64,000 bases of DNA from a virus, in IMG/VR virus record IMGVR_UViG_3300044691_000371, positions 1 through 64,000 of that record; one strand, given 5' to 3'. Numbering within the stretch: position 1 is the first letter of the stretch; the number at the start of each line of letters is the position of its first letter. Of this stretch, positions 4,981 to 60,650 are shown in pieces. The notes under the pieces are model-generated. The model did not search any database. It had not been told where the DNA came from and saw only the letters and a list, made by a program, of their open reading frames with translations. The translations under genes were made by a program, and so were the position numbers.

Positions 4981-5020
4981 CCTTTATTTTTTTATTGCGT
5001 AAATATAAATAATTAACAAT

Positions 5021-5074
5021 AAAAAAAACAGATAACTAAACCTCGCGTTCTGTTATCTGCTAACCAATTATCTG
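5021..5074 (-). ncRNA. Candidate ~55-nt small RNA (promoter directly followed by terminator, no ORF)
   Basis: Promoter at 5078-5108, then AUCAGAUAAUUGGUUAG, an 8-bp stem CAGAUAAC/GUUAUCUG and U8. Confidence 0.55.
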
Positions 5075-5077
5075 ATG

Positions 5078-5108
5078 TAAAGATAACTATTGTTTTCGTA
5101 TTTGCAAA
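5078..5108 (-). promoter_or_regulatory. Bacteroidota sigma70-type promoter with conserved spacer
   Basis: TTTG-19 nt-TATCTTTA; copy of the repeated AAATAAAGTTTGCAAATAC(A/G)AAAAC element. Confidence 0.75.
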
Positions 5109-5125
5109 CTTTATTTGAAAATAAT

Positions 5126-6087: not shown

Positions 6088-6113
6088 ACCCTGAAAACGT
6101 ATCAAGGTGAAAC
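6088..6113 (-). promoter_or_regulatory. 3' UTR hairpin antisense to its own gene's initiation region
   Basis: 6094-6105 is the exact reverse complement of 7054-7065 (12 nt), plus a GAAAC match just after the ATG. Confidence 0.6.
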
Positions 6114-6124
6114 AAGGTTTCTTT

Positions 6125-7051
6125 TTAAACCAATTCCAAAATTGATGAAAGTGCTTTGTTATCTATTCCTAAAGCTGAACCGGTGTACTTACTTTCAATC
6201 CTGGCGTTTTCTTTTTTAGATATTGGCATTTTGTGGGTTGTGTAGTGCGTAACGCCTGAAAACAATCCCCAAAGTGTTTGGCCTTTGCTTTTCATTTCAG
6301 TTGAAATACTGCCTAACAATTCCTGTGAGCGGTTAAGTGCGTAACCTGAATATTTTTCTTTTGCTTCTGCAATTCCCAAATTCATATCAACCCCGGTCAC
6401 TTGGTTTACAATCATTCCGATGTTTGCCTTTTTAACGGATATTTCAGAAAGTGTAATGAACTTTTCAAAAAGGCTTTTTTCCTGTTCGATAATTCCGTTA
6501 ATACTCATTATTGATTGCTCAACTTTAGCGTGGATTGATTGTGTATGACGTGCGCTGTTTTTAAGTTCTTTTTGTGCGTATGCAAATGTGTTACGGCAGC
6601 AAATTGTGAAGTTTACGGCTCCCCATTTTAGTGATGTTGTGCCGTCATGTGAATTAATTCCGGTTACAAACCCTTCAACTGTAGTTCCGTTTTTGCCTAA
6701 ACCTTCTATTGTGTTTCCGGTTTTCAATTGTAAGTAAACTTTACCGCCGTCATTGAACTTGCCGCCTGAATGAAGTTCATAGCCTGTTTTTTCGCAAACT
6801 CTTAAAAGCAGTTCGCCTAATTGATAGTTTTGGAAAGGCTCATAACCGTCTTTACAGGTTGAAAATGTTGTTTGAGTATCATCTCTTACAATGCCGAAAA
6901 ATCCGGTTTCTTTTTGATTAGGTAATAACAAAGGCAGTTTTGATACTTTCCAGTTTAAACCGTAGGTATCTAACATTTCATTGATTAGACTTTCATCACT
7001 AAAGATGTTTGATAAAATTTGATCTGCGAAGTTTGTTTTTGAAGTTTCCAT
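6125..7051 (-). CDS. DUF932 / TIGR03299-like phage-plasmid protein
   Basis: GLNWKV, YEPFQN, G.F..GGKVY, NSHDGTTS, C.NT, TLWGLFSGVTHY..H motifs. Confidence 0.8.
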   Translation of the reverse strand: METSKTNFADQILSNIFSDESLINEMLDTYGLNWKVSKLPLLLPNQKETGFFGIVRDDTQTTFSTCKDGYEPFQNYQLGELLLRVCEKTGYELHSGGKFNDGGKVYLQLKTGNTIEGLGKNGTTVEGFVTGINSHDGTTSLKWGAVNFTICCRNTFAYAQKELKNSARHTQSIHAKVEQSIMSINGIIEQEKSLFEKFITLSEISVKKANIGMIVNQVTGVDMNLGIAEAKEKYSGYALNRSQELLGSISTEMKSKGQTLWGLFSGVTHYTTHKMPISKKENARIESKYTGSALGIDNKALSSILELV

Positions 7052-9024: not shown

Positions 9025-10017
9025 TTAAATATGGCAATCGTAAATGCTCAATAAAGTATCTTCCGGTAATTCATCAATCATTTTATTAAATTCTCCCGAC
9101 CATTCTTTTTGATCTTTTTCGTTTGAAACACAAGCCAACCAACCCATTTCGCCTTTCTCGTACCATTTTCTATCTCTTATAAAAGCAAATGTACTGATTG
9201 TATTATTATAGGCGTTTGTTAAATATTCTTCCCTTGTAATAATAAAATCATCGCAAGAATCAAACATATCAATTATTTTATCTTTTTGAGCTTTTGCCCA
9301 GGCAACTAAACGAGGTTGAGAAAAATAATACGGCCTCGATTTGTCATTGCCGTATCCCATTCTTTCACCGATAGACTTCCACGTTTCATTAACTGGCAAG
9401 TCTTTTAATATTATCATTGCCGTATCGTATTTTTTTGCTGCCTTATCTATGCTTTCATTTCTCATTAAATCAAAATCTATATATTTTTTCAATGATTGAT
9501 CGGCAGTTCCTTTTTTTGCTTCTTTGGTCATTAAGCCTGGTTCACCTCTTTGCCCTAAAACTTCAAGTCCATCTTTAAGTTTAAAAAATCCAGTACAACG
9601 ACCTCCTAATAAATACCAATCCCATTTTGAATTTGGATTTGTCCATGTGCCATATTTGCCCTCTTTTTCATCCCTCGATTTATAACCGCACCATTCTTTC
9701 ATATATTCATCAAAAGTTGAATAAAGTTCTTTTAGTAACATTTCTCTTTGCTCTAAATATTCGGGTACTTTATGAGTATCCGATCCGGTTCCTAAAGTTC
9801 CTTTAATTCTAAATTCATCATCCCATGTATTAAGTATTCTACCATCAGGCATAATTACCTTAGTTGTAGTATCTGTTTCATATTGTGATAAATATTCTTC
9901 TTCATCACTTTCAAAAACCATAAATTCATCAGGACAATCGCCCATGTTATTTTCCTGATAAGGTGCTAATTGTTTTTCTGGGTCATTCCCAATTACTAAT
10001 ACTGTAAAATGTGACAT
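9025..10017 (-). CDS. Acidic phage protein of unknown function; start corrected to ATG 10017 (MSHFTVLVIG)
   Basis: NPNSKWDWYLLGGR, WYEKGEMGW and terminal DCHI motifs; flanked by its own promoter and terminator. Confidence 0.7.
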   Translation of the reverse strand: MSHFTVLVIGNDPEKQLAPYQENNMGDCPDEFMVFESDEEEYLSQYETDTTTKVIMPDGRILNTWDDEFRIKGTLGTGSDTHKVPEYLEQREMLLKELYSTFDEYMKEWCGYKSRDEKEGKYGTWTNPNSKWDWYLLGGRCTGFFKLKDGLEVLGQRGEPGLMTKEAKKGTADQSLKKYIDFDLMRNESIDKAAKKYDTAMIILKDLPVNETWKSIGERMGYGNDKSRPYYFSQPRLVAWAKAQKDKIIDMFDSCDDFIITREEYLTNAYNNTISTFAFIRDRKWYEKGEMGWLACVSNEKDQKEWSGEFNKMIDELPEDTLLSIYDCHI

Positions 10018-10058
10018 TTTGCAAAAGTTTTGATTTGTTAACGACATTGTTAACGCTT

Positions 10059-23640: not shown

Positions 23641-25236
23641 TTATTTCTTCAAACTTTTATAATAGTTAAATCCCCTATTTAAGTAATAAGGAAAATTAAT
23701 CATAGGATGTATCATTTCGGCTGTAGCATTTTCAATATGTTTAGTCGTTAATTTTTTAGGTTCAATTACCGATACATTATGATCTATGCAATGAATTTTA
23801 ACTCTATTGTAATCTTCAATTGCTGTCATTTTCATTATTCCAAAATGACCTTTAAGTAATCCATGCATACTCATACTTTCATTCAATTAAACTTTCTGGT
23901 CTATCAATATCAACGTTAAAATTTGAGTAGTCGTTTCCCTCTGCGTTTGAAATTCTCATTGGCCTTTTTGCTTTCCTCCAAAAGTCGTCACTCCATTCCT
24001 GTAAGATAACTTTTTCTTCATCTGTTATTAGTTCATCATTGTAGACCTTTAGAAGTATGTGGTTTTGTTGTGGTGTCATTTTTAATCGTTGCTATCAAAG
24101 ATATATTTTTCTGCTATCTCTAAAACAGTTCTTACTTTTTTAAGGTCAAATTGAAATCTTGTGGTAAAACGCTATCATCTTCGCCGGTTATTGTAACATA
24201 ATTTATCATTTGTGCTATTTAAAAAGTGAATTAAATTCTTGAATTGTTTTAACTGTTCCATTCATACGCTTAACAATATCACCAGTTAGGCATATTGTGA
24301 GTTTATCGGCATCCTTCTTACTTATTTCAGCGAACATTGCTTCTTTTATAAAGAGATTTACAATGCTATTATTGCCTAAAACTGTTAAATCTGCGTATGC
24401 TTTTTGTAAAATCCAACCTCTGAACTTTGTTCTTATGTCAGATAGGTAAACTGAAAATTCATGATTTTTACCTATTTTAAATTTGAATGTAGGATTTGGT
24501 AAATCTTTTTTAGGGTCAAAATCCATTACTGTTACTTTCATCTTTTTATTCTTTTTGTATATAAATATCCATTAAACTCTTTCCAATTCTTAAACAAGCT
24601 ACTTTTGAAAAAGTAGATGTATTTTTCACTGAAAATTATACGGTATTTATTCATCTCTTAAACAGCTTGCATAACCTCTATTCGAACACATTGCCTCAAT
24701 AATATCATCCCTCAACCGTGCTTGATATTTTTCGGCTGTTTCGCCCTCACGTTGCTTTAAATCTTCGTTTCTTTCACTTGAAACAACGTGACTATTGAAC
24801 AATTGCAAGACGTAATTTGCACCAATCATGAAGCAATCGTGATCGCTCAATACTTTTCTTTCGTCGTATTGGTGCTTTTCATAAAAATCTCCTATCTGAT
24901 TTTCAGCATTTAGATAGGCGTTCTTTAGGAATTTTTGATTAGTTGTCATTACGCGGCGATTTTAGATTTAATAAAAGTCATTTGATTTTTTGTGAACTTA
25001 TCGCCGAAAAGAAATTGTGCAAGTCCGTTTATACCGTGTTCTTTGCAAAACTTAATAGTATCTAAAACCCTACGTGTTACGGTAGCGGCTTCGCCCTCTA
25101 CATGAAAGGATACGAAGTCAGGGTCATTATCAATGATGTCATAAAGTGCTTGTGTATCGAAGTTGTTATCTATGATAACGTTTTCAGTATAGTTTTTGTA
25201 AGTGATAACTCCGATTTGTGATACTTGATTTTTCAT
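23641..25236 (-). CDS. Cassette of small hypothetical ORFs behind the 25273-25303 promoter (first start ATG 25236)
   Basis: ORFs 24949, 24647, 24215, 23879, 23641 are closely packed. The track's start at 25302 lies inside the promoter. Confidence 0.6.
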
Positions 25237-42932: not shown

Positions 42933-43656
42933 GATACTAAATTAAAGTTTTTATATTAAATAGCAAATATTTGTTTTGATACGTTTTTTAATCACTTCAA
43001 AACAACTTCTTATTGTTATTGAATTTATACCTTCAAAAATTATCGTTCGTTATATCGCTTTAAAATGCGTTAAATAGTGAAAGGCATTTAAACGCTATGT
43101 AAATACCTAAAATTATAAATGTTAGTACTGAGGCTTTTGATTTTCGTTCGTAAACAACTTCAAATATCCCATCTAAATAAGCAAATGCAAAAAACATTAA
43201 AATCAATTTTAATATTTCAATTTCTATTCTCATTTTCTTGTCTTTGAGCTATCCCTAATCTGATTAAAAGACCATCAGCGTAATCAACTGCACAATTTAT
43301 GTCATCTTCCATCGGCCTTTCTGATTTTCCGTTTGCAATTAACGTATTTAAAAACTGTGTTGACAAATTCAATCTCATTTGCGCGATGTTTGCCTGTAAT
43401 TGCTGATTGATTTGATCTTGTGTTGGCTTTGCTTGTGTTGGCCGTCTGTCTGCAAACTGGCTTGCATTAGGTAATTTATTACTCATATTGTTGTTTTATT
43501 TGATTTCTTCCCAAATTGTTAAATCATCTTCTGATGTTGGCTTTGGATTAGCTATTAACTTAAATTTTGTTTTACACCTCTTACACCAAGCTTTTGTAGG
43601 TAATGAAGTTGCATTAAACCTCAAATCATGTGTGAATAGTCTACAAATTATATTTT

Positions 43657-53674: not shown

Positions 53675-55113
53675 AACCTGCCTATTGATGGGTACGACTC
53701 TTTAATTTTAGTCATATCACCTTTATAGGCAACGATTATTTTTTGTTCCTGCTTTGGAAATTTGCGATAATGAAGTGTTTTTTTAGCGTGTGATAATCTG
53801 GTAAATGCCCCCTCAACGTAAACAATTTTATTGTAAACAAATAGCCCGTTGTTTTTAAAAAACAATTCGTGTTCTGATTCGCAACAATAATAAGCCCCAT
53901 CTTTATCGCGGCTATCTCCTGTCATTATAACAAAAAAACAATTATCGTTTAATACCTCAATTGCTTTTTTATAACCGGCAAATAAAGTATCTCTAAACTC
54001 TTCGTAAGTAGGGATTGAATTTAATTCCCCTATGGGCGGTTTGCCGTCATAGTCTAAATATTCCTCAACTTTATAGTAAGGGGGGCATGAAAAAACAAGA
54101 TCGTATTTTTTGTCTGGTTTAAAGGTTGAGCTATCCGATTTAAACCATTTTACATTTTCAAAATCCTGGCATAACGCATTGTTAGCATCGCATTGGTTTT
54201 GCCTTATTTCTGATGAAAGATATTCATATCCGTTTGCTCCGGTAACGAAACCCATTTGAACACCACCGCCAAATGGATTATAAACACTTGTGCCGTTAGT
54301 TGGCATAAAGAAGCGTAATATAACCTCACAGGCAACTGGGTCAAGTACGGAGGCGTTGCCGTTAAACGATTTGCCTTTGTTGTGCTGTACGTTGCCATCT
54401 TCATCAATTGTATGATTGGCTAAAACAACGTTTGACATACCATTTTTACCCTGCCAACATCCATCCCGTGAAGCAAACTTTGGATTTTCAATATTATATT
54501 TTGCCCCGGCTGCTTCTATTTTTTCGTTCCATTCTTTTTTCATTTTCAACCAATCGCCTTTAGTCGAGTTCCATACATTTGTCATTGTTGCATGGGCTAA
54601 CCTTTTCATTCTTACTTGTTCTAATTGGCCGTAAACCATGTAAGAATAACCGCTTAAATTGAGATACTCTTTAAACCCGATGGCAGCAAATACTTTTGGA
54701 TTTTCGAGGTCATGTTTTTGACTTACGGTCATAATCATAGGATAGCCAAAGGTATTTTGCTTTATGATTTCGCCGACCATATCGCTATAAATCGCTTTGT
54801 ATTTTTTGTTTAAATCCATAGCCGATTGAAGCAAGCAAAACTCTTTTGCTTCGTGGTTGATCTGATATGTGAAAAACCCTGAAAAAGCATCATTCAACTT
54901 AAAAATAATAGCTGAATGTATCTGCATGTTTTTACGAGCAGCCCGGTAAGCAACCCCGTCCTCAACTGCTAATTTAGCAACCTGTTCTTCATACCCTGAA
55001 CCTATGACAGATTCTACATTTATAAATTCAATTTTATCGGCGAACATTATCGTTTGCTTTTTATTTATAGGCTCAATAATTATTTCGTCTTCGAAAATTA
55101 GTTGTTGTTTCAT
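53671..55113 (-). CDS. DNA amino-methyltransferase-like protein with extra N-terminal domain
   Basis: SVLDP...E, YNPFGGG (motif I), FSCPPYY (motif IV); N-terminal ~170 aa possibly GNAT-like. Confidence 0.75.
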   Translation of the reverse strand: MKQQLIFEDEIIIEPINKKQTIMFADKIEFINVESVIGSGYEEQVAKLAVEDGVAYRAARKNMQIHSAIIFKLNDAFSGFFTYQINHEAKEFCLLQSAMDLNKKYKAIYSDMVGEIIKQNTFGYPMIMTVSQKHDLENPKVFAAIGFKEYLNLSGYSYMVYGQLEQVRMKRLAHATMTNVWNSTKGDWLKMKKEWNEKIEAAGAKYNIENPKFASRDGCWQGKNGMSNVVLANHTIDEDGNVQHNKGKSFNGNASVLDPVACEVILRFFMPTNGTSVYNPFGGGVQMGFVTGANGYEYLSSEIRQNQCDANNALCQDFENVKWFKSDSSTFKPDKKYDLVFSCPPYYKVEEYLDYDGKPPIGELNSIPTYEEFRDTLFAGYKKAIEVLNDNCFFVIMTGDSRDKDGAYYCCESEHELFFKNNGLFVYNKIVYVEGAFTRLSHAKKTLHYRKFPKQEQKIIVAYKGDMTKIKESYPSIGRL

Positions 55114-55156
55114 TTATTATGATTTGTTTTTTATTTTATGTTTGGTAAAATGTGTC

Positions 55157-55810
55157 TTAACTTTTGAGCAGTTTATTTTGTTCATGAAGTCCCTCTAATC
55201 CCAAAACATTTATCTTGTGTTGGATAGCGTTTTCGATTTCGCTTTTTGCTTCGTTAACTACTATATCCATTGTTTCTTGAAAACATTTAGCGAAAAAAGG
55301 AATGTTACTTGCTACTTCCTGGGTTAACCATTCAACTGTGAAATTAAGTTCTTGTTGATCGGCTTTTGAAAGTGTTTTTTTAGCTGATAAATCTTTTACA
55401 CGCGCTTGCTTTACTTTTAAAGTTTTAGCAAATTCACGCATTCTGTCATCAAATTTACGGTGTATAAATTCCTTTCTGCTTTCTTGCTCTGGCAAATGTT
55501 CAACCATTTTTCTATCAAAAGCCTCAATAGTGCATGGAATGCCATCGCCCCTATTCATTGAGGTTATCATTTCAGCGAATTGATTCGAACTCATTCTTAT
55601 TTGAATAATCGGAGTATGATTTGAAGCAAAATACCTATCACAAGATAAATCTCTCTGTATTTCAGATTGATAAACTTTCATTTGGATATAATTATCCTGT
55701 TTCAGTTCACTGCCGTAAAAGTTTGTTCCTGTAGAATTTATACGGCTAAATCCAATTTGCCCAAAAGATGGGTGTTTATGCCTTTCATCTTCGTTCTGAT
55801 CTAAACTCAT
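55157..55810 (-). CDS. Hypothetical phage protein
   Basis: HPSFGQI.FSR, MS..QFA..I.S.N.G.G.PCT; helical C-terminus. Confidence 0.6.
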   Translation of the reverse strand: MSLDQNEDERHKHPSFGQIGFSRINSTGTNFYGSELKQDNYIQMKVYQSEIQRDLSCDRYFASNHTPIIQIRMSSNQFAEMITSMNRGDGIPCTIEAFDRKMVEHLPEQESRKEFIHRKFDDRMREFAKTLKVKQARVKDLSAKKTLSKADQQELNFTVEWLTQEVASNIPFFAKCFQETMDIVVNEAKSEIENAIQHKINVLGLEGLHEQNKLLKS

Positions 55811-56080
55811 TTTGTGTGTATTTAAAGGTAATTTACTTTTTTTATTTTACAAGTTAACTAACAAAAACTTGATTAGTAGCTTCTTTTGTTTTTCGTCAAG
55901 AAATATTTCATCGGTCAAGTCATCGACTTTAACCTTGATATGCAATCCATCGTAAATAGAGTTCTTAATGGTTATTGTGCTATTTTCTTCGCACACTATA
56001 TTAAATTCGTCGTGTATGTTCATGATTTTGCTTTTTGTATTTGATATAACGCTTGCTGAATTTAAATAGCTTATTTTTTT

Positions 56081-56146
56081 GTGGACGTAACCGGTAACGA
56101 TCCGGCGATCTCCATCTGGACTGGGATCAGCAGCCTCTTTACGCCC
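56081..56146 (-). ncRNA. tRNA-like RNA lacking a D stem, with G3-U70 and A73
   Basis: GGGCGUA/UACGUCC-A acceptor stem; T arm GCCGG-AUCGUUA-CCGGU; central hairpin GAUCCCA-GUCCAGA-UGG(A)GAUC. Confidence 0.6.
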
Positions 56147-56149
56147 TTT

Positions 56150-56331
56150 AAAATAAGCATCCGTTCTGATCGCCGTCCCGGATGCTCAACCTAAACCTAT
56201 CACAATGACCGAATAGAACTTCGATCTACTGCTAAAAGCCAAATCCTTTTGAGAGTTTGGCTTGCGTAGACGGGTTTACGCATTTTTTCCGGTATTAGCA
56301 GACCGTGAACTATCTCACGGAACACGGTGGG
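56150..56331 (-). ncRNA. GC-rich structured 3' UTR / ncRNA
   Basis: Hairpin CCGUGA/UCACGG; three-way junction CUGCUAA/UUAGCAG enclosing UGCGUA/UACGCA and AGCCAAA/UUUGGCU; final hairpin AGCAUCCG/CGGAUGCU. Confidence 0.55.
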
Positions 56332-56550
56332 TTAATTTACTACCGTAGCATCTTCAAAATGAAGTATGCCAGCAATCCAAATTTTAGCGGGTGTTTTAAG
56401 AATGTCGGAATTATCAGCAAAAATAACTTTATAGCCTTTTTCGTAGCCTAATTCATCGGTTTTAATTACCTGTATGTTTTGACCTATATAAAGGTTAGAC
56501 CAGGCATGAACATTTTTGCTTCTTTTGATTGTTACTGTTAGAGTGTTCAT
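56332..56550 (-). CDS. Small hypothetical protein, first gene after the 56591-56621 promoter
   Basis: A-rich leader and AAAATG start. Confidence 0.65.
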   Translation of the reverse strand: MNTLTVTIKRSKNVHAWSNLYIGQNIQVIKTDELGYEKGYKVIFADNSDILKTPAKIWIAGILHFEDATVVN

Positions 56551-56590
56551 TTTGAGATAGTTTAAAATTACTTTGTCGATATTGACAGAA

Positions 56591-56621
56591 CAAATATAAC
56601 TATTGTTTTTGTATTTGCAAA
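56591..56621 (-). promoter_or_regulatory. Sigma70-type promoter
   Basis: TTTG-19 nt-TATATTTG. Confidence 0.8.
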
Positions 56622-56655
56622 CTTTATTTTACTTTTTTGAAATTATTTTTTAAAA

Positions 56656-56688
56656 TAAAAATGCCTTACATTTCTATAAGGCATTTTC
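56656..56688 (-). terminator. Intrinsic terminator
   Basis: AAAATGCCTTATA-GAAA-TGTAAGGCATTTTT. Confidence 0.75.
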
Positions 56689-57963
56689 GAGGTGAGTAAT
56701 CGTTCCGTGCTTCGTCTTTTTTGCGTCTATCGTAGAGGGTTGTTTTTATCAAGCTGCAATAAGCTTTTTATAGCTATTTTTTAAAGTTTCTAAATGACCT
56801 ATGCGGGTATCTATCTTTTTACAGGCGTAGTTAACAAGTTCTTTAAATACATAATCCCTATTTACATGCTTATTACAAAGTGCAAAAAATACTTTTCCAT
56901 CATCGTAAATAACTAATTTTTTTCTGTAAGGTGTATTTAAATAGTAGGACTTATTAAGGGTGATAATTTCATTCGAAAGTTCGATTTTGATTTGGTTTTT
57001 ATCCTCAAAAGGAAATCTGTTCCCAATCTCGTACGAAATTTCAGGTAAACCGGTTTTGCCCGTTTTTAAACTGTATGAAATGTTTTTCCCGATCACAATT
57101 AATTAAATTCATTGTACAAATATACTAAGTATTTTTAAAATCAAAAACTATACCAATTTTATTAGATTAATTGAGCGTGGATAATAATAGCTGGCAAAAT
57201 AGGTGTAACGTCAATAATTACTTTCATAACCGTAGCCTTTAAACCTTTGTGGTAAATCGTGGTGTTTAATTCAGGTGTGAAGCTCAACTTAGTGTTTATT
57301 GGATTAGCCTGGTTGGTTATTTGACCTTCTTTGTTTTGGATGAATATGATTGTTGGATGCATTATTAAAAAGGATTTATTCTTTTAAAATATTTGTAATC
57401 ATTGGTTATTTCGAAATCATAATGATTCTGATTGATATATTCTTTACAAATGTCTGTAAATAATTGAGGGTCACGTTTTCCAGTTAATTCAATTTCAATC
57501 GCGTTACCAGGTTTCATTCGTGCGAAACATTCAAACCAATAATCTAATTGTTCCTGAAAGTTTTTAAAAGTTGTTTGCATCTGATATATTTTTAAGTTGT
57601 TTTTTAAAATCTGAATTTTCAACTCTTAATAATTGTATTATAGTGACTAATTCCCTATTGAATAGCTTTAAGGATTGGTTATAATACATTATTTGGTTTA
57701 ATTGGGTATTTATACCTAAAAGTGTGATAAGTCGTTGCTTAGAGGCTGTAACTCTTGCAGATGGCTTGCTTTTTTCAAATTTTATTATCTGTTCTAACAT
57801 TTCTAACAAATAATGATTTTGTTCATTTAAAAGCTTTGTCGGTTTTAATGTATCTTGAATTTCGCTTTCAAGTAATCCTAATTCAAGGTTTTTAATATCA
57901 AAACCGTCTTCTAATTTTTCAATTTTTTCCTGTAATTCTTTAAAATACTCTTTTGCCATAACT

Positions 57964-58911
57964 TTAAAATAAATCTGTTTCTAAAACTTTAAATCCTTTT
58001 TCATGCTCAAATGCATAATAGTCAAATGGTGCATCAACTTCGTAATATCTGTTTTTTTTCCAATCAAAAAATAGTGTACACATACCTTTATTTGCAACTC
58101 CTTTTGGCTTTGCCTTATCTATAAAAATTTGTACTTCATGTGATTGATATTGTGAACCGCTTTCGCCTACTAAATTAGCCGGTGGTCTCCAAAGTGTTAT
58201 CCATGTCATTGCCTTTCTAAATAAAGCCTGCCCACCTGCTGCCTGACGTGGTAATGGTTTTGGGTAATAAGTAATATTATCTTTTGTAACAGGTATTGAA
58301 CTTGCTGGATGTATTGATAAGAAAAAATGTTTATTTTCTTTTTTACAGCTACGGCGCAAATAACTCATTAAGTTTTCAATATATAAATCCTGGCGTGAAC
58401 CGAATTTTGACATATCGTGTTCTAATTCATTATATGGCTCACCTACAATAATATTAATTTTCTTTTTATTTTCTTTTTCCCATTTTTTAGAATAGTCAAA
58501 AAGATTTTCTATTGAATACGCTCTATCATCTGTATCAACAAAAACAAAGTATTCAGTAAGCCATGCAATCACATCGTAAAATTCTTTATCGGCTAAGGCA
58601 AAGTTTGAATTTTTTAACATTTGTTTCCCGCTGTATTTATGCACTAATTCAGAAACTACCTCTTCAGCCGATCCTGTTTCAGGTGAACAAATTAAACTTC
58701 TTTGTCCATATTTTTTTGCCTGATTCAAAACCATTTCAAAAATAAATTCTGATTTTCCATGGGTTGGCTCTGAATAAACAATTGTGAATGTGCCTAACTT
58801 GATTGAATATAAGCTATCAAGGTTTTTAAAGCCTGTATTTTGGCCCCTTATTATCCCTTCATTTCGCAATTTTTCAATTGCTGGCATCATATCAAGTATA
58901 GTTTTTATCAT
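57964..58911 (-). CDS. SF4/DnaB-like replicative helicase domain
   Basis: TGFKNLDSL, Walker A variant SEPTHGKS, SPE, EPYNEL, IHP, KAKPKG. Confidence 0.8.
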   Translation of the reverse strand: MIKTILDMMPAIEKLRNEGIIRGQNTGFKNLDSLYSIKLGTFTIVYSEPTHGKSEFIFEMVLNQAKKYGQRSLICSPETGSAEEVVSELVHKYSGKQMLKNSNFALADKEFYDVIAWLTEYFVFVDTDDRAYSIENLFDYSKKWEKENKKKINIIVGEPYNELEHDMSKFGSRQDLYIENLMSYLRRSCKKENKHFFLSIHPASSIPVTKDNITYYPKPLPRQAAGGQALFRKAMTWITLWRPPANLVGESGSQYQSHEVQIFIDKAKPKGVANKGMCTLFFDWKKNRYYEVDAPFDYYAFEHEKGFKVLETDLF

Positions 58912-59612
58912 TAGTTACTAACGTTTGAAAAATCCAACTTATAATTATTTTGCTGCTTAAAATCTGTTTTCTTATCCCCTTTATTCCAATTAGATAATCT
59001 TAATGATAAATCCCATGTTTTTTCAAATTCAAATCTCATTTTAGTTTTTGATTGATTAGGCTCAGTCCAATATTTGAAAAAATCATTGAGTAAATCTTTA
59101 TTATATTTTGAAAGAAAAGGAGAAAGGGCATTTTTAAATGCCTCTCTACGATCTTTAATATCTATTTTATTTACTTTATTATTCTTTATAGTATTGCGTT
59201 CGCTTTCTTTTGGTAATGCGAACGCATTTTTATCGTGTGCGTTCGCATTTTTATTTTGTTCATTCGCATGTTTTTCCCATCTAAATATAGCCGATTCTTT
59301 AGCCTTTATTGATTTTGCATTACGTTTATTTAATCTATCATTTATACTATCAGACCAGAAATATTTCCCATCATTTTTAAATAAATCAAAATCATTTATC
59401 AATGATAAAATACAACCTTCTGTTGTTCGTAATGCAAATGCATAATTATCACATTCTGAAAGTAAAAGCTTGCCACCCTGTTCATAAATTATTTCTATTA
59501 AATCCCAAAAAACACTTTTACCTTCATGCCCTAATTTCATTAGGACTTTTTGCAATTTAGGATCATTCCTTGCACCAAAATCATGGCTGAAATAAAAAGA
59601 TTCTTTAGCCAT
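58911..59612 (-). CDS. Replication initiator (DUF4373/Lin1244-like)
   Basis: YFSHD..ARND.K+..+....G.EG...FW.L+E; C-terminal F..YWTE...KM+FE..KTW....RL..W. Confidence 0.8.
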   Translation of the reverse strand: MAKESFYFSHDFGARNDPKLQKVLMKLGHEGKSVFWDLIEIIYEQGGKLLLSECDNYAFALRTTEGCILSLINDFDLFKNDGKYFWSDSINDRLNKRNAKSIKAKESAIFRWEKHANEQNKNANAHDKNAFALPKESERNTIKNNKVNKIDIKDRREAFKNALSPFLSKYNKDLLNDFFKYWTEPNQSKTKMRFEFEKTWDLSLRLSNWNKGDKKTDFKQQNNYKLDFSNVSN

Positions 59613-60277
59613 TATGCAGATATGGGGAATAATGTAAAAGGCTTTTCTAATAATTGATGTTCATTATTAATAAGCAATTCAAATTCTTTTATTATAAGTT
59701 CACTTTTTTTAAACCATTCTCCATTAATCCTTAATGAATTAAATTTAACATGTAAATCCTTTTCTAAAGTACCGAAAGGGTCTTTTATTTTATAAATGAT
59801 TTTACATTTATATGGATTGTGAGTTTGAATACTTTTAAGCCTCGATGATGGATTATTACTAAATCCTATTTTATAAATATCACCGGCTTCTATCAGATAA
59901 ATATAAGTTTGTTTTAATATTTTATTTTTTGTTTTTTTATTTGTTTTATCTGTAAATAATTTAAAATCTTCAATATTTTCTAATCTATAAAATGATTTTG
60001 TTAATGTTTTATCTTTAAAACATTTATTAGTTTTTACTATTATTTTAGGTAATCTGAAAAAATCTGAATCATTATTATTTTCTATTAAAATTTCAGTTAT
60101 TAAATAAGGATAATGCTTTTTTTCAGATAAAATATTATCTCCATCTTTGTATTTAAAGATATAATCTCCTACCTTAAAACCGAGTTTAATTAAATGATTT
60201 TGATATAATAATATCAAATCTTCGTATAGGCAATTTATTTTATCTATACAAATTGAATCAATTTCTTTGATTGTCAT
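59612..60277 (-). CDS. Protein with C-terminal T5orf172/MUG113 GIY-YIG-like domain
   Basis: YIYLI....YKIGFS.NP..RL..IQT.NP; E..LH..F...R+.GEWF. Confidence 0.75.
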   Translation of the reverse strand: MTIKEIDSICIDKINCLYEDLILLYQNHLIKLGFKVGDYIFKYKDGDNILSEKKHYPYLITEILIENNNDSDFFRLPKIIVKTNKCFKDKTLTKSFYRLENIEDFKLFTDKTNKKTKNKILKQTYIYLIEAGDIYKIGFSNNPSSRLKSIQTHNPYKCKIIYKIKDPFGTLEKDLHVKFNSLRINGEWFKKSELIIKEFELLINNEHQLLEKPFTLFPISA

Positions 60278-60328
60278 AGTGTGATTAATTTGGTCAATGT
60301 AACAATATATAAAGCCGACAAAACCGGG

Positions 60329-60499
60329 TTAGTCTAATAAAATTAAAACGCCGCCCATTATTTCAACTGTATTTACTTTTTTTGATTTAACAAGATCGTT
60401 TACACGTTGTCGAATTAAATTATTTCTACGGGCATATTCAGCCTGAGTAATAAGTTTTGTTCTATCGACTTTTAAAGGAGGTAATTGTGAATTTTCCAT
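60329..60499 (-). CDS. Small HTH-like DNA-binding protein (56 aa, below the ORF-track cutoff)
   Basis: Manual translation MENSQLPPLKVDRTKLITQAEYARRNNLIRQRVNDLVKSKKVNTVEIMGGVLILLD. Confidence 0.55.
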   Translation of the reverse strand: MENSQLPPLKVDRTKLITQAEYARRNNLIRQRVNDLVKSKKVNTVEIMGGVLILLD

Positions 60500-60650
60500 T
60501 GCTTCAAATATATGTTACATTGTCCGAATAAACAATATTTTATTTCATAAAATTTCGATTATTCTTTTTAATTCTTTTCACAACTGGTTTCGAGCAGTCA
60601 ATTTTTATTATTTGGAATGTTGTTTGGTTGCAGTAACTCATTTTTTTTGT

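What the first reader, a model, noticed from the sequence alone, without database searches (positions are those of the whole stretch)
56303..56562. Self-antisense 3' UTR hairpin (case 3): 72-aa gene
Seen: leader and start read AACUAUCUCA-AAAU-GAACAC. The 3' UTR, 6 nt after the stop, reads GUGUUC-CG-UGAGAUAGUU (10+6 nt), with the seed in the loop of CCGUGA-GAUAGU-UCACGG. All three cases are first genes behind the conserved operator-containing promoter and share the 5' leader hairpin. I found no convincing equivalent for Ro60, the 29761 gene or the 56749 gene. Inference: same mechanism as case 1.
Basis: partly seen in the sequence, partly recalled or inferred. Interest (0 to 1): 0.78.

Follow-up and report, generated by a model that had tools for sequence, protein, structure and literature searches.

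The report
Phage mRNA tail mirrors its start
A small phage gene carries, just after its stop codon, a hairpin that is the exact mirror image of the sequence around its own start codon. The same leader and tail pair surrounds unrelated genes in other phages, so it looks like a reusable RNA frame that lets a message fold back and shut its own translation, though no experiment shows this yet.

Summary
On the minus strand, leader AACUAUCUCA (56562-56553) and GAACAC (56548-56543) flank the AU of the start codon. They are the exact complement of GUGUUC-CG-UGAGAUAGUU (56325-56308), which lies 6 nt after the stop, partly in the loop of hairpin CCGUGA-GAUAGU-UCACGG.

It is not chance:
- Shuffles give p <= 0.0003 for this cassette and about 7e-7 for the three cassettes together.
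- The 10-mer occurs only twice in the 84.8-kb phage genome.
- Folding pairs the start region with the tail at P 0.72-0.97 whichever transcript ends I assume.

New here: the same leader and the same 26-nt tail block flank unrelated ORFs (116 and 139 aa) in two otherwise unrelated contigs, L196 and L151. A second L196 cassette has its own code in the same layout. The cargo genes' homologues in other phages lack the feature. So it belongs to a portable promoter/leader/trailer frame, not to the gene.

Best reading (about 0.5): the pairing masks the start region and limits translation, like icaR. Nothing here tests this: no RNA data were available, L151 has lost the short arm, and cis versus trans action is open.

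This scan has already noted the same phenomenon in other Bacteroidota phages.

The parts
56591..56629 (-). Bacteroidota-type promoter of the conserved family. AAATAAAGT is followed by TTG (-33; TTTGCAAA is an 8-bp palindrome), a conserved spacer, and TATATTTG (-7 box, 56598-56591).
   Evidence: Seven copies in the 84.8-kb genome. Aligns with the promoters of cassettes F1 and F2, two operons, and two cassettes of L196.
56574..56587 (-). 5'-terminal leader hairpin UGUC-AAUAUC-GACA, at or next to the predicted transcription start.
   Evidence: Sequence. Present in the MFE structure. The homologous position in L196a reads AGC-AAUAAC-GCU, with two pairs changed on both sides.
56553..56562 (-). Leader long arm AACUAUCUCA, at -12 to -3 relative to the A of AUG.
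   Evidence: Perfect inverted repeat I10. Occurs once in the genome in the sense orientation. Identical in L196a and L151.
56543..56550 (-). Start codon ATG (56550-56548) and short arm GAACAC (56548-56543, +3 to +8). AAAU, which includes the AU of AUG, stays in a 4x2 internal loop.
56332..56550 (-). Cargo ORF of 72 aa. It has no sequence relatives and a predicted small beta fold.
   Evidence: the ORF listing. No Pfam or PHROG hit. Only itself among 5.8 billion protein clusters. The Atlas gives only weak look-alikes among phage hypothetical proteins.
56302..56327 (-). Conserved 26-nt trailer block. It holds short arm GUGUUC (56325-56320), bulge CG, long arm UGAGAUAGUU (56317-56308), and the local hairpin CCGUGA-GAUAGU-UCACGG (56320-56303), which shows 6 nt of the anti-leader in its loop.
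   Evidence: Identical 26 nt in L151, and the same block in L196. Relatives' contigs keep it and then run on into unlike sequence (table 7).
56229..56301 (-). Trailer domain closed by CUGCUAA/UUAGCAG. It holds hairpin UGCGUA..UACGCA and the terminator-like hairpin AGCCAAA..UUUGGCU followed by UUUU.
   Evidence: MFE structure. L196a has the homologous closing stem CUGCCAA/UUGGCGG, with one pair changed on both sides and one U-G wobble on the sense strand. The U-tract is weak, and the simple scan calls no minus-strand terminator.

Best explanation
The 72-aa gene sits in a portable phage expression frame. The frame is a host-type early promoter, a 5'-terminal hairpin, a leader carrying a 10-nt 'code' just upstream of AUG, the cargo ORF, a trailer hairpin that displays the complement of that code, and then a terminator domain.

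Once the 3' end has been transcribed, the trailer (nucleating through its loop GAUAGU) pairs with -12..-3 and +3..+8 of the same mRNA. The AUG then sits in a small internal loop between two helices. Bacteroidota ribosomes do not use Shine-Dalgarno pairing and need an open A-rich start region (my knowledge of the field, not tested here). So this should block new initiation and confine translation to the nascent or young transcript. It may also create a double-stranded target for RNase III.

What is shown: the complementarity, its recurrence with different sequences, its co-conservation around unrelated cargo, and its thermodynamic dominance.
What is inferred: that both elements are on one RNA, that they pair in vivo, and that the effect is repression.
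For: 1. Exact 10+6 nt complement around the AUG, 6 nt after the stop. Shuffle p <= 0.0003.
2. All three monocistronic protein cassettes behind the conserved promoter and 5' hairpin have the same layout with three different codes. F1 is 12+5, F2 is 10+5 or more, F3 is 10+6. Fisher-combined p is about 7e-7.
3. F1 and F3 have homologous leaders (..UCAAAAAUG) and homologous trailer hairpins (UGA-loop-UCA). Their variable 6-7 nt differ, yet each matches its own partner.
4. The F2 and F3 10-mers occur only as leader plus trailer in the whole genome.
5. RNAfold gives pairing probabilities of about 0.99 (F1, F3) and 0.75 (F2). The F3 value is robust to the choice of ends.
6. L196a is a viral contig with no other DNA or protein similarity to this genome. 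It has the same long arm (10/10 on both sides) and a 5/6 short arm around an unrelated 116-aa ORF, with P about 1.0.
7. L196b has a fourth code (9+6) shown in the loop of a trailer hairpin.
8. The G-U pairs in the trailer stems of F1, F2 and L196a lie on the sense strand.
9. Homologues of the cargo genes in other phages lack the feature, so it goes with the frame.
10. Precedent: the icaR 3' UTR pairs with its own ribosome-binding region, blocks initiation and gives an RNase III substrate (PMC3868564). Anti-RBS sequences hundreds of nt away repress in vivo (PMC12697547).
Against: - L151 keeps the leader and the 26-nt block but has no partner for the short arm, and its fold does not close.
- In L151 and L196a the blocks are identical even at unpaired positions. 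That fits recent exchange as well as it fits constraint.
- L196b alone is not significant. A 9-nt match occurs in 2% of mismatched pairs, and its predicted pairing probability is 0.17.
- The 3' end of the F3 transcript is uncertain.
- The set of three cases was chosen by a reader after looking at the sequence, although the promoter class is an independent criterion.
- A ribosome terminating 6 nt upstream of the helix would open it. The net effect could therefore be something other than simple repression.
Confidence: 0.5

Rival explanations
1. The pairing is the same but acts in trans. The trailer hairpin plus terminator is released as a 3'-UTR-derived small RNA that accumulates and shuts off leaders carrying the matching code. 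This would give delayed negative feedback.
For: - The anti-leader sits in a hairpin loop directly upstream of a terminator domain, which is the usual anatomy of loop-seeded antisense RNAs.
- The F1 code is also present next to the start codons of two other operons (25251, 68224) and at 42987. The F1 trailer therefore has several possible targets.
Against: - For F3 and F2 the code is unique to the cassette's own leader. A trans form would have no target other than its parent mRNA.
- No processing site or separate promoter was seen.
- The trailer lies within 6-12 nt of the stop in every case. A free small RNA would not need that.
Confidence: 0.15
2. The pairing is real but is not repressive. It closes the mRNA end to end to protect it from RNases, or it brings the stop codon next to the AUG so that terminating ribosomes re-initiate.
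For: - The helix begins 5-10 nt after the stop in F1, F2, F3 and L196a.
- The AUG stays in an internal loop rather than in a helix in F1 and F3.
- The hbs mRNA of B. subtilis uses a 5'/3' UTR interaction to control RNase access (PMC5737220).
Against: - The helix covers the region a Shine-Dalgarno-less ribosome would need to be open.
- The 5' end already has its own hairpin.
- No precedent for bacterial ribosome recycling through UTR pairing is known to me.
Confidence: 0.12
3. The complementarity has no RNA function. Leader and trailer are conserved boundary modules through which phages swap accessory genes by recombination, like the PeSL cassettes of T4-type phages. The inverted repeat is a by-product.
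For: - The frame is constant and the cargo is variable in the window, L196a, L151 and the relatives' contigs.
- The promoter is repeated seven times in the genome.
- The blocks are identical even at unpaired positions.
- PeSLs are repeated promoter-plus-stem-loop units that mediate shuffling (PMC2839356).
Against: - Recombination needs homology between copies. It does not need complementarity between the two ends of one copy.
- Four different codes each match their own partner and no other.
- The non-complementary middle always falls at the AUG.
- The G-U pairs are on the sense strand only.
- This model explains the mobility of the frame, not the mirror image. The two readings are compatible.
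Confidence: 0.13
4. The inverted repeats are DNA sites. Either they form an invertible gene switch, or they are the terminal inverted repeats of a small mobile cassette.
For: Perfect 10-bp inverted repeats flank the ORF.
Against: - The cargo is in the sense orientation in all four independent DNA contexts. The contigs laid on the region show no joints, but contigs hide rare forms.
- The three cassettes in one genome have unrelated repeat sequences, so one recombinase could not serve all of them.
- Homology between instances lies in and outside the repeats, while the inside differs. That is the opposite of an element bounded by terminal repeats.
- There is no target-site duplication.
Confidence: 0.04

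Closest known systems
icaR mRNA 5'-UTR/3'-UTR pairing, Staphylococcus aureus (PMC3868564)
   Same: A motif in the 3' UTR of an mRNA is complementary to its own translation-initiation region. Pairing is proposed, and for icaR shown, to block initiation and to make a double-stranded RNase III substrate.
   Different: - icaR uses a generic anti-Shine-Dalgarno motif (UCCCCUG) in a long 3' UTR of one chromosomal gene.
- Here there is no Shine-Dalgarno sequence.
- The arms are gene-specific 'codes' of 10-12 nt plus a second arm across the AUG.
- They sit in a hairpin 6-12 nt after the stop.
- They recur as orthogonal pairs in several cassettes of one phage.
- The frame travels between phages with different cargo.
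hok mRNA fold-back inhibition (fbi/tac) of type I toxin-antitoxin systems (my own knowledge, not read here)
   Same: The 3' end of the full-length mRNA pairs with the 5' region and keeps the message translationally inert.
   Different: - The cargo here is not a small hydrophobic toxin.
- No antisense RNA gene or promoter was found.
- There is no evidence of activation by 3' trimming.
PeSL mobile regulatory cassettes of T4-type phages (PMC2839356, PMC4122927)
   Same: Repeated early promoter plus stem-loop units flank small genes without known homologues. Phages differ by replacement of the gene between conserved regulatory modules.
   Different: PeSLs are not described as complementary to the start region of the gene they flank. 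Here the host is Bacteroidota-type and the stem-loop is separate from the terminator.
Long-range anti-RBS folding in Bacillus subtilis mRNAs (PMC12697547)
   Same: Sequences hundreds of nt downstream pair with the ribosome-binding site in vivo and cut translation and mRNA level.
   Different: That work finds such sequences depleted from natural genes. Here they are retained and conserved, which implies they are used rather than avoided.

Membership tests
icaR-type cis 5'-3' UTR pairing | A 3' UTR segment complementary to the translation-initiation region of the same gene | tested here: met
   10+6 nt exact complement. Shuffle p <= 0.0003. MFE and centroid structures both contain it.
icaR-type cis 5'-3' UTR pairing | Both segments lie on one transcript | not testable with these tools
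   The promoter and terminator domain are only predicted. No RNA data were available for this DNA.
icaR-type cis 5'-3' UTR pairing | Pairing lowers translation and/or gives RNase III cleavage | not testable with these tools
   Needs reporter, toeprint or cleavage assays.
hok-type fold-back inhibition (type I toxin-antitoxin) | Small hydrophobic toxin ORF with an overlapping antisense RNA gene | tested here: not met
   The 72-aa product is a soluble-looking beta protein. No plus-strand Bacteroidota-type promoter lies within 56200-56650.
PeSL-like mobile regulatory cassette | Repeated promoter and stem-loop modules flanking variable ORFs, with gene replacement between related phages | tested here: met
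   Seven promoter copies. The same leader and trailer surround 72-, 116- and 139-aa unrelated ORFs. Relatives' contigs keep the trailer and then diverge (table 7).
PeSL-like mobile regulatory cassette | Mini-circle or recombination products between modules | not tested
   Only contigs were available, and they showed no joints.
Invertible DNA switch | Both orientations of the segment between the inverted repeats exist, and the recombinase site is conserved | tested here: not met
   One orientation in four DNA contexts. No joints in contigs. The repeat sequences of the three cassettes are unrelated. Rare inversions cannot be excluded.
Mobile cassette bounded by terminal inverted repeats | Homology between copies lies inside the repeats, flanks differ, and there is a target-site duplication | tested here: not met
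   Homology lies in the repeats and outside them, and the inside is unrelated. No duplication.
Intrinsic terminator | GC-rich hairpin directly followed by a U-run | tested here: not met
   Hairpin 56320-56303 is followed by UCUGCUAAUACC. The terminator-like hairpins lie further downstream.
Any Rfam family | A covariance-model match | tested here: not met
   No match at gathering score in the window. Only chance-level hits at E 2.5 and 8.6 in 55950-56700.

The most novel reading that the evidence does not exclude
Bacteroidota phages share a family of portable paired-UTR expression frames. Each frame has its own 10-12 nt 'address code', written once upstream of the AUG and once, mirrored, in a trailer hairpin next to the stop codon. 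The frames are orthogonal within a genome, are exchanged between otherwise unrelated phages, and accept any cargo ORF. They give each accessory gene a built-in, ribosome-sensitive translational timer: open while the RNA is nascent or while a ribosome is terminating, closed otherwise.
Probability: 0.3. Interest if true: 0.8.

Novelty: new variant of a known kind. Interest (0 to 1): 0.62.

Why it matters
Self-regulation of bacterial mRNAs through 5'-3' UTR pairing is known from a handful of single genes. If the best reading holds, three things follow:
- It would be a designed, repeated and transferable device in phages. A standard frame would give any newly acquired gene a tight, self-limiting burst of expression in hosts that lack Shine-Dalgarno-based initiation.
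- It would explain how phages can safely carry and swap unknown or possibly harmful accessory genes.
- It would offer compact orthogonal leader/trailer pairs as tools for controlling expression in Bacteroidota.

It also shows that anti-start sequences, normally depleted from genes, can be positively selected.

Tried and rejected
RNA families and tRNAs:
- Rfam at gathering threshold on the whole window found nothing. E-value mode on 55950-56700 gave only chance hits.
- ARAGORN found no tRNA or tmRNA.

Similar DNA in cultured phages (INPHARED):
- No match in near mode for 54000-60000.
- No match in distant mode for the cassette.

Relatives of the 72-aa protein:
- None in viral contigs.
- Only itself in the 5.8-billion-cluster search, so orthologue covariation for case 3 could not be done.

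DNA pattern scans:
- The 16-mer of the promoter gave only chance hits.
- The longer promoter pattern gave one chance hit inside a gene.
- The terminator-hairpin pattern found nothing in viral or metagenome contigs.
- The hairpin 17-mer gave 54 metagenome hits. Only L151 is real. L149 and L181 are coding sequences of gut bacteria.
- The leader 18-mer in viral contigs gave L196 again, plus three chance hits in genes.
- In bacterial genomes the hairpin pattern gave 0 hits. The leader pattern gave 120 hits, none with a credible trailer.

Homologues of the cargo of cases 1 and 2 in other phages (L001-L010, L132-L139):
- None shows convincing self-complementarity.
- Only a weak 6-nt CA/TG match was seen in L001-L004, and a low-complexity AT match in L137.

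Sequencing runs:
- No RNA holder was listed.
- All runs laid were contigs. They showed no joints and no molecule ends, so they say nothing about transcripts or about rare inversions.

Other points considered and set aside:
- The 10-nt complement of the start codon region inside the CDS (56354-56363, I11) is part of a local palindromic hairpin, so I do not count it.
- The gene at 60499..60329 scored high in the duplex screen. There the repeat covers the promoter itself, so it is a different thing.

Full report
**Setting.** The window is the first 64 kb of an 84.8-kb virus record. Almost all genes are on the minus strand. Promoters are of the Bacteroidota type, TTG ... TAnnTTTG. One promoter family (AAATAAAGTTTGCAAATAC ... 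TAT.TTTG) occurs seven times. In five copies the predicted transcript starts with a short hairpin whose hexaloop begins AAU. Three of these five head monocistronic protein cassettes:
- F1, DUF932, 7051..6125.
- F2, phrog_10079. The true start is 10017 (MSHFTV, as in its homologues), not the upstream ATG at 10047. The gene ends at 9025.
- F3, the 72-aa gene of this finding, 56550..56332.

The other two (25302 and 68286) head polycistronic operons.

**The observation.** It is exactly as described.
- The leader is AACUAUCUCA-AAAU-GAACAC, at -12..-3 and +3..+8 around the AUG.
- Six nt after the stop comes GUGUUC-CG-UGAGAUAGUU.
- The hairpin CCGUGA-GAUAGU-UCACGG puts six anti-leader bases in its loop.
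- F1 and F2 have the same layout with other sequences. F1 is AAAACGUAUCAA / GAAAC against GUUUC-ACC-UUGAUACGUUUU. F2 is AAACUUUUGC+AAAAU against AUUUU-CUC-GCAAAAGUUU.
- In each case the anti-leader sits in or across the loop of a 6-7 bp hairpin between the stop codon and a terminator-like hairpin.

**Chance.**
- In a screen of all genes, start region against own trailer, F3 reaches -22.3 kcal/mol. Only 0.12% of mismatched pairs match that.
- For the longest exact complement, the three cases are the top three of 149 genes. A match of 10 nt or more has a background rate of 0.67% per pair, or about one gene expected by chance in the genome. So the bare 10-mer screen alone is not decisive.
- Dinucleotide shuffles of either partner give p = 0.001-0.002 (F1), 0.003-0.006 (F2) and <= 0.0003 (F3). 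Fisher combination gives about 7e-7 for the class defined by promoter plus monocistronic layout.
- The F2 and F3 10-mers occur only twice each in the whole genome, once as leader and once as trailer.

**Folding.**
- The full F3 transcript folds with the start region paired to the trailer in both MFE and centroid structures, z = -3.1.
- Pair probabilities are about 0.99 for F1 and F3 and 0.75 for F2, despite 1-kb loops in F1 and F2.
- F3 stays at 0.72-0.97 for five choices of 5' and 3' ends.

**Related DNA.**
- The 72-aa protein has no sequence relatives.
- Contigs from four metagenome runs were laid on 55000-58000. Several keep the trailer region at 90-97% identity and then run on into unlike sequence exactly where the ORF begins. 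One variant reads GUGUGC in the short arm (tables 7 and 8).
- Pattern scans then found two full instances.
  - L151 is a 1.36-kb soil contig. It has the identical 26-nt trailer block and, 400 nt upstream, the leader AAACUAUCUCAAAAUGAA, around an unrelated 139-aa ORF. Its upstream and downstream sequences are different.
  - L196 is a 25-kb viral contig. It has the leader, the trailer and a homologous promoter and 5' hairpin around an unrelated 116-aa ORF. L196 shares with this genome only these two blocks: 43 nt at 86% and 39 nt at 92%. There is no tblastx hit.
- The three cargo proteins are unrelated to each other and match no family.
- In L196a the long arms are 10/10 on both sides and the short arm is 5/6. 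The differences fall outside the arms. Two pairs of the 5' hairpin and one pair of the trailer's closing stem are changed on both sides. The fold closes with P about 1.0.
- A second L196 cassette (Thg1-like, same promoter family) has its own code, AAAUACCAC / GUGGUAUUU plus AAUAUG / CAUAUU. Its anti-leader lies in the loop of a hairpin that spans the stop codon. Alone it is not significant.
- Homologues of the F1 and F2 cargo in other phages do not show the feature. It belongs to the frame, not to the gene.

**Against.**
- L151 has no partner for the short arm and is not predicted to close.
- In L151 the stop codon lies inside the hairpin.
- Identity at unpaired positions in L151 and L196a fits recent exchange as well as it fits constraint.
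- The 3' end of the F3 transcript is uncertain. The U-tract is weak, no minus-strand terminator is called, and about 230 nt of GC-rich structured RNA follows.
- There are no RNA data.

**Interpretation.**
- Complementarity between the two ends of one unit, kept with four different sequences, with the non-complementary gap always at the AUG and with G-U pairs only on the sense strand, is best explained by RNA-RNA pairing.
- A recombination-module model (PeSL-like, PMC2839356) explains why the frame is portable. It does not explain why the frame is a mirror image. Both can be true together.
- DNA inversion and repeat-bounded mobile elements fit poorly. Orientation is constant, the repeat sequences of the three cassettes are unrelated, and homology lies outside rather than inside the repeats.
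- The most likely effect is masking of the start region, as shown for icaR (PMC3868564) and for distant anti-RBS sequences in B. subtilis (PMC12697547).
- Trans action by a 3' fragment is plausible for F1, whose code is also in two other leaders.
- A stabilising or ribosome-recycling closed loop (compare hbs, PMC5737220) remains open.

**Earlier notes of this scan.** Other agents have reported the same kind of paired leader/trailer frames in other Bacteroidota phages. Those notes are unchecked and I do not count them as evidence. My result on this DNA was reached independently and agrees with them.

**Verdict.** The mechanism is plausible and supported by comparison and folding, but it is untested. 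It is a new variant of a known kind (cis 5'-3' UTR pairing), made notable by its modular, orthogonal and portable form.

Noticed in passing
window 56072-56232 (minus strand): Directly downstream of the cassette lie about 160 nt of GC-rich structured RNA, z = -3.0. It includes a tRNA-like unit: a 7-bp acceptor-like stem GGGCGUA/UACGUCC with G3-U70, and a T-arm-like CCGG-AUCGUUA-CCGG. ARAGORN and Rfam find nothing. A relative's contig covers 56180-56247.
   Followed up: partly
window 25251, 42987, 7065 and genome 68224 (minus strand); trailer at 6094: The 12-nt code of cassette F1 (AAAACGTATCAA) also precedes the start codons of the operons at 25236 and 68211, and occurs at 42987. The DUF932 trailer could therefore act on several leaders in trans.
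   Followed up: partly
window 60290-60540 (minus strand): The small gene 60499..60329 is flanked by an inverted repeat that covers its own promoter (GGACAATGTAACATATAT.. against ..ATATATTGTTACATTGACC). This looks like a pair of operator sites rather than an RNA interaction.
   Followed up: no
window 5020-5116 (minus strand): A copy of the conserved promoter drives no ORF. It is followed by a roughly 55-nt hairpin RNA ending in CAGATAAC..GTTATCTG plus U8, a candidate small RNA.
   Followed up: no
window 10017-10047 (minus strand): The mechanical ORF call for the case 2 gene starts at an ATG inside the 5' leader hairpin (10047). Homologues begin MSHFTV, so the real start is 10017.
   Followed up: yes
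L196 11894-12619 (+): A Thg1-like (tRNA-His guanylyltransferase-like, judged by eye) gene sits in a cassette of the same promoter and 5'-hairpin family. It has its own 9+6 nt leader/trailer complement.
   Followed up: partly
window 56263-56282 (+ strand): The hairpin UGCGUA..UACGCA of the trailer domain reads as a terminator-like hairpin plus T6 on the plus strand. The domain may stop transcription from both directions.
   Followed up: no
window 56614-56621 and the other promoter copies: The -33 element of the conserved promoter lies inside an 8-bp palindrome, TTTGCAAA.
   Followed up: no
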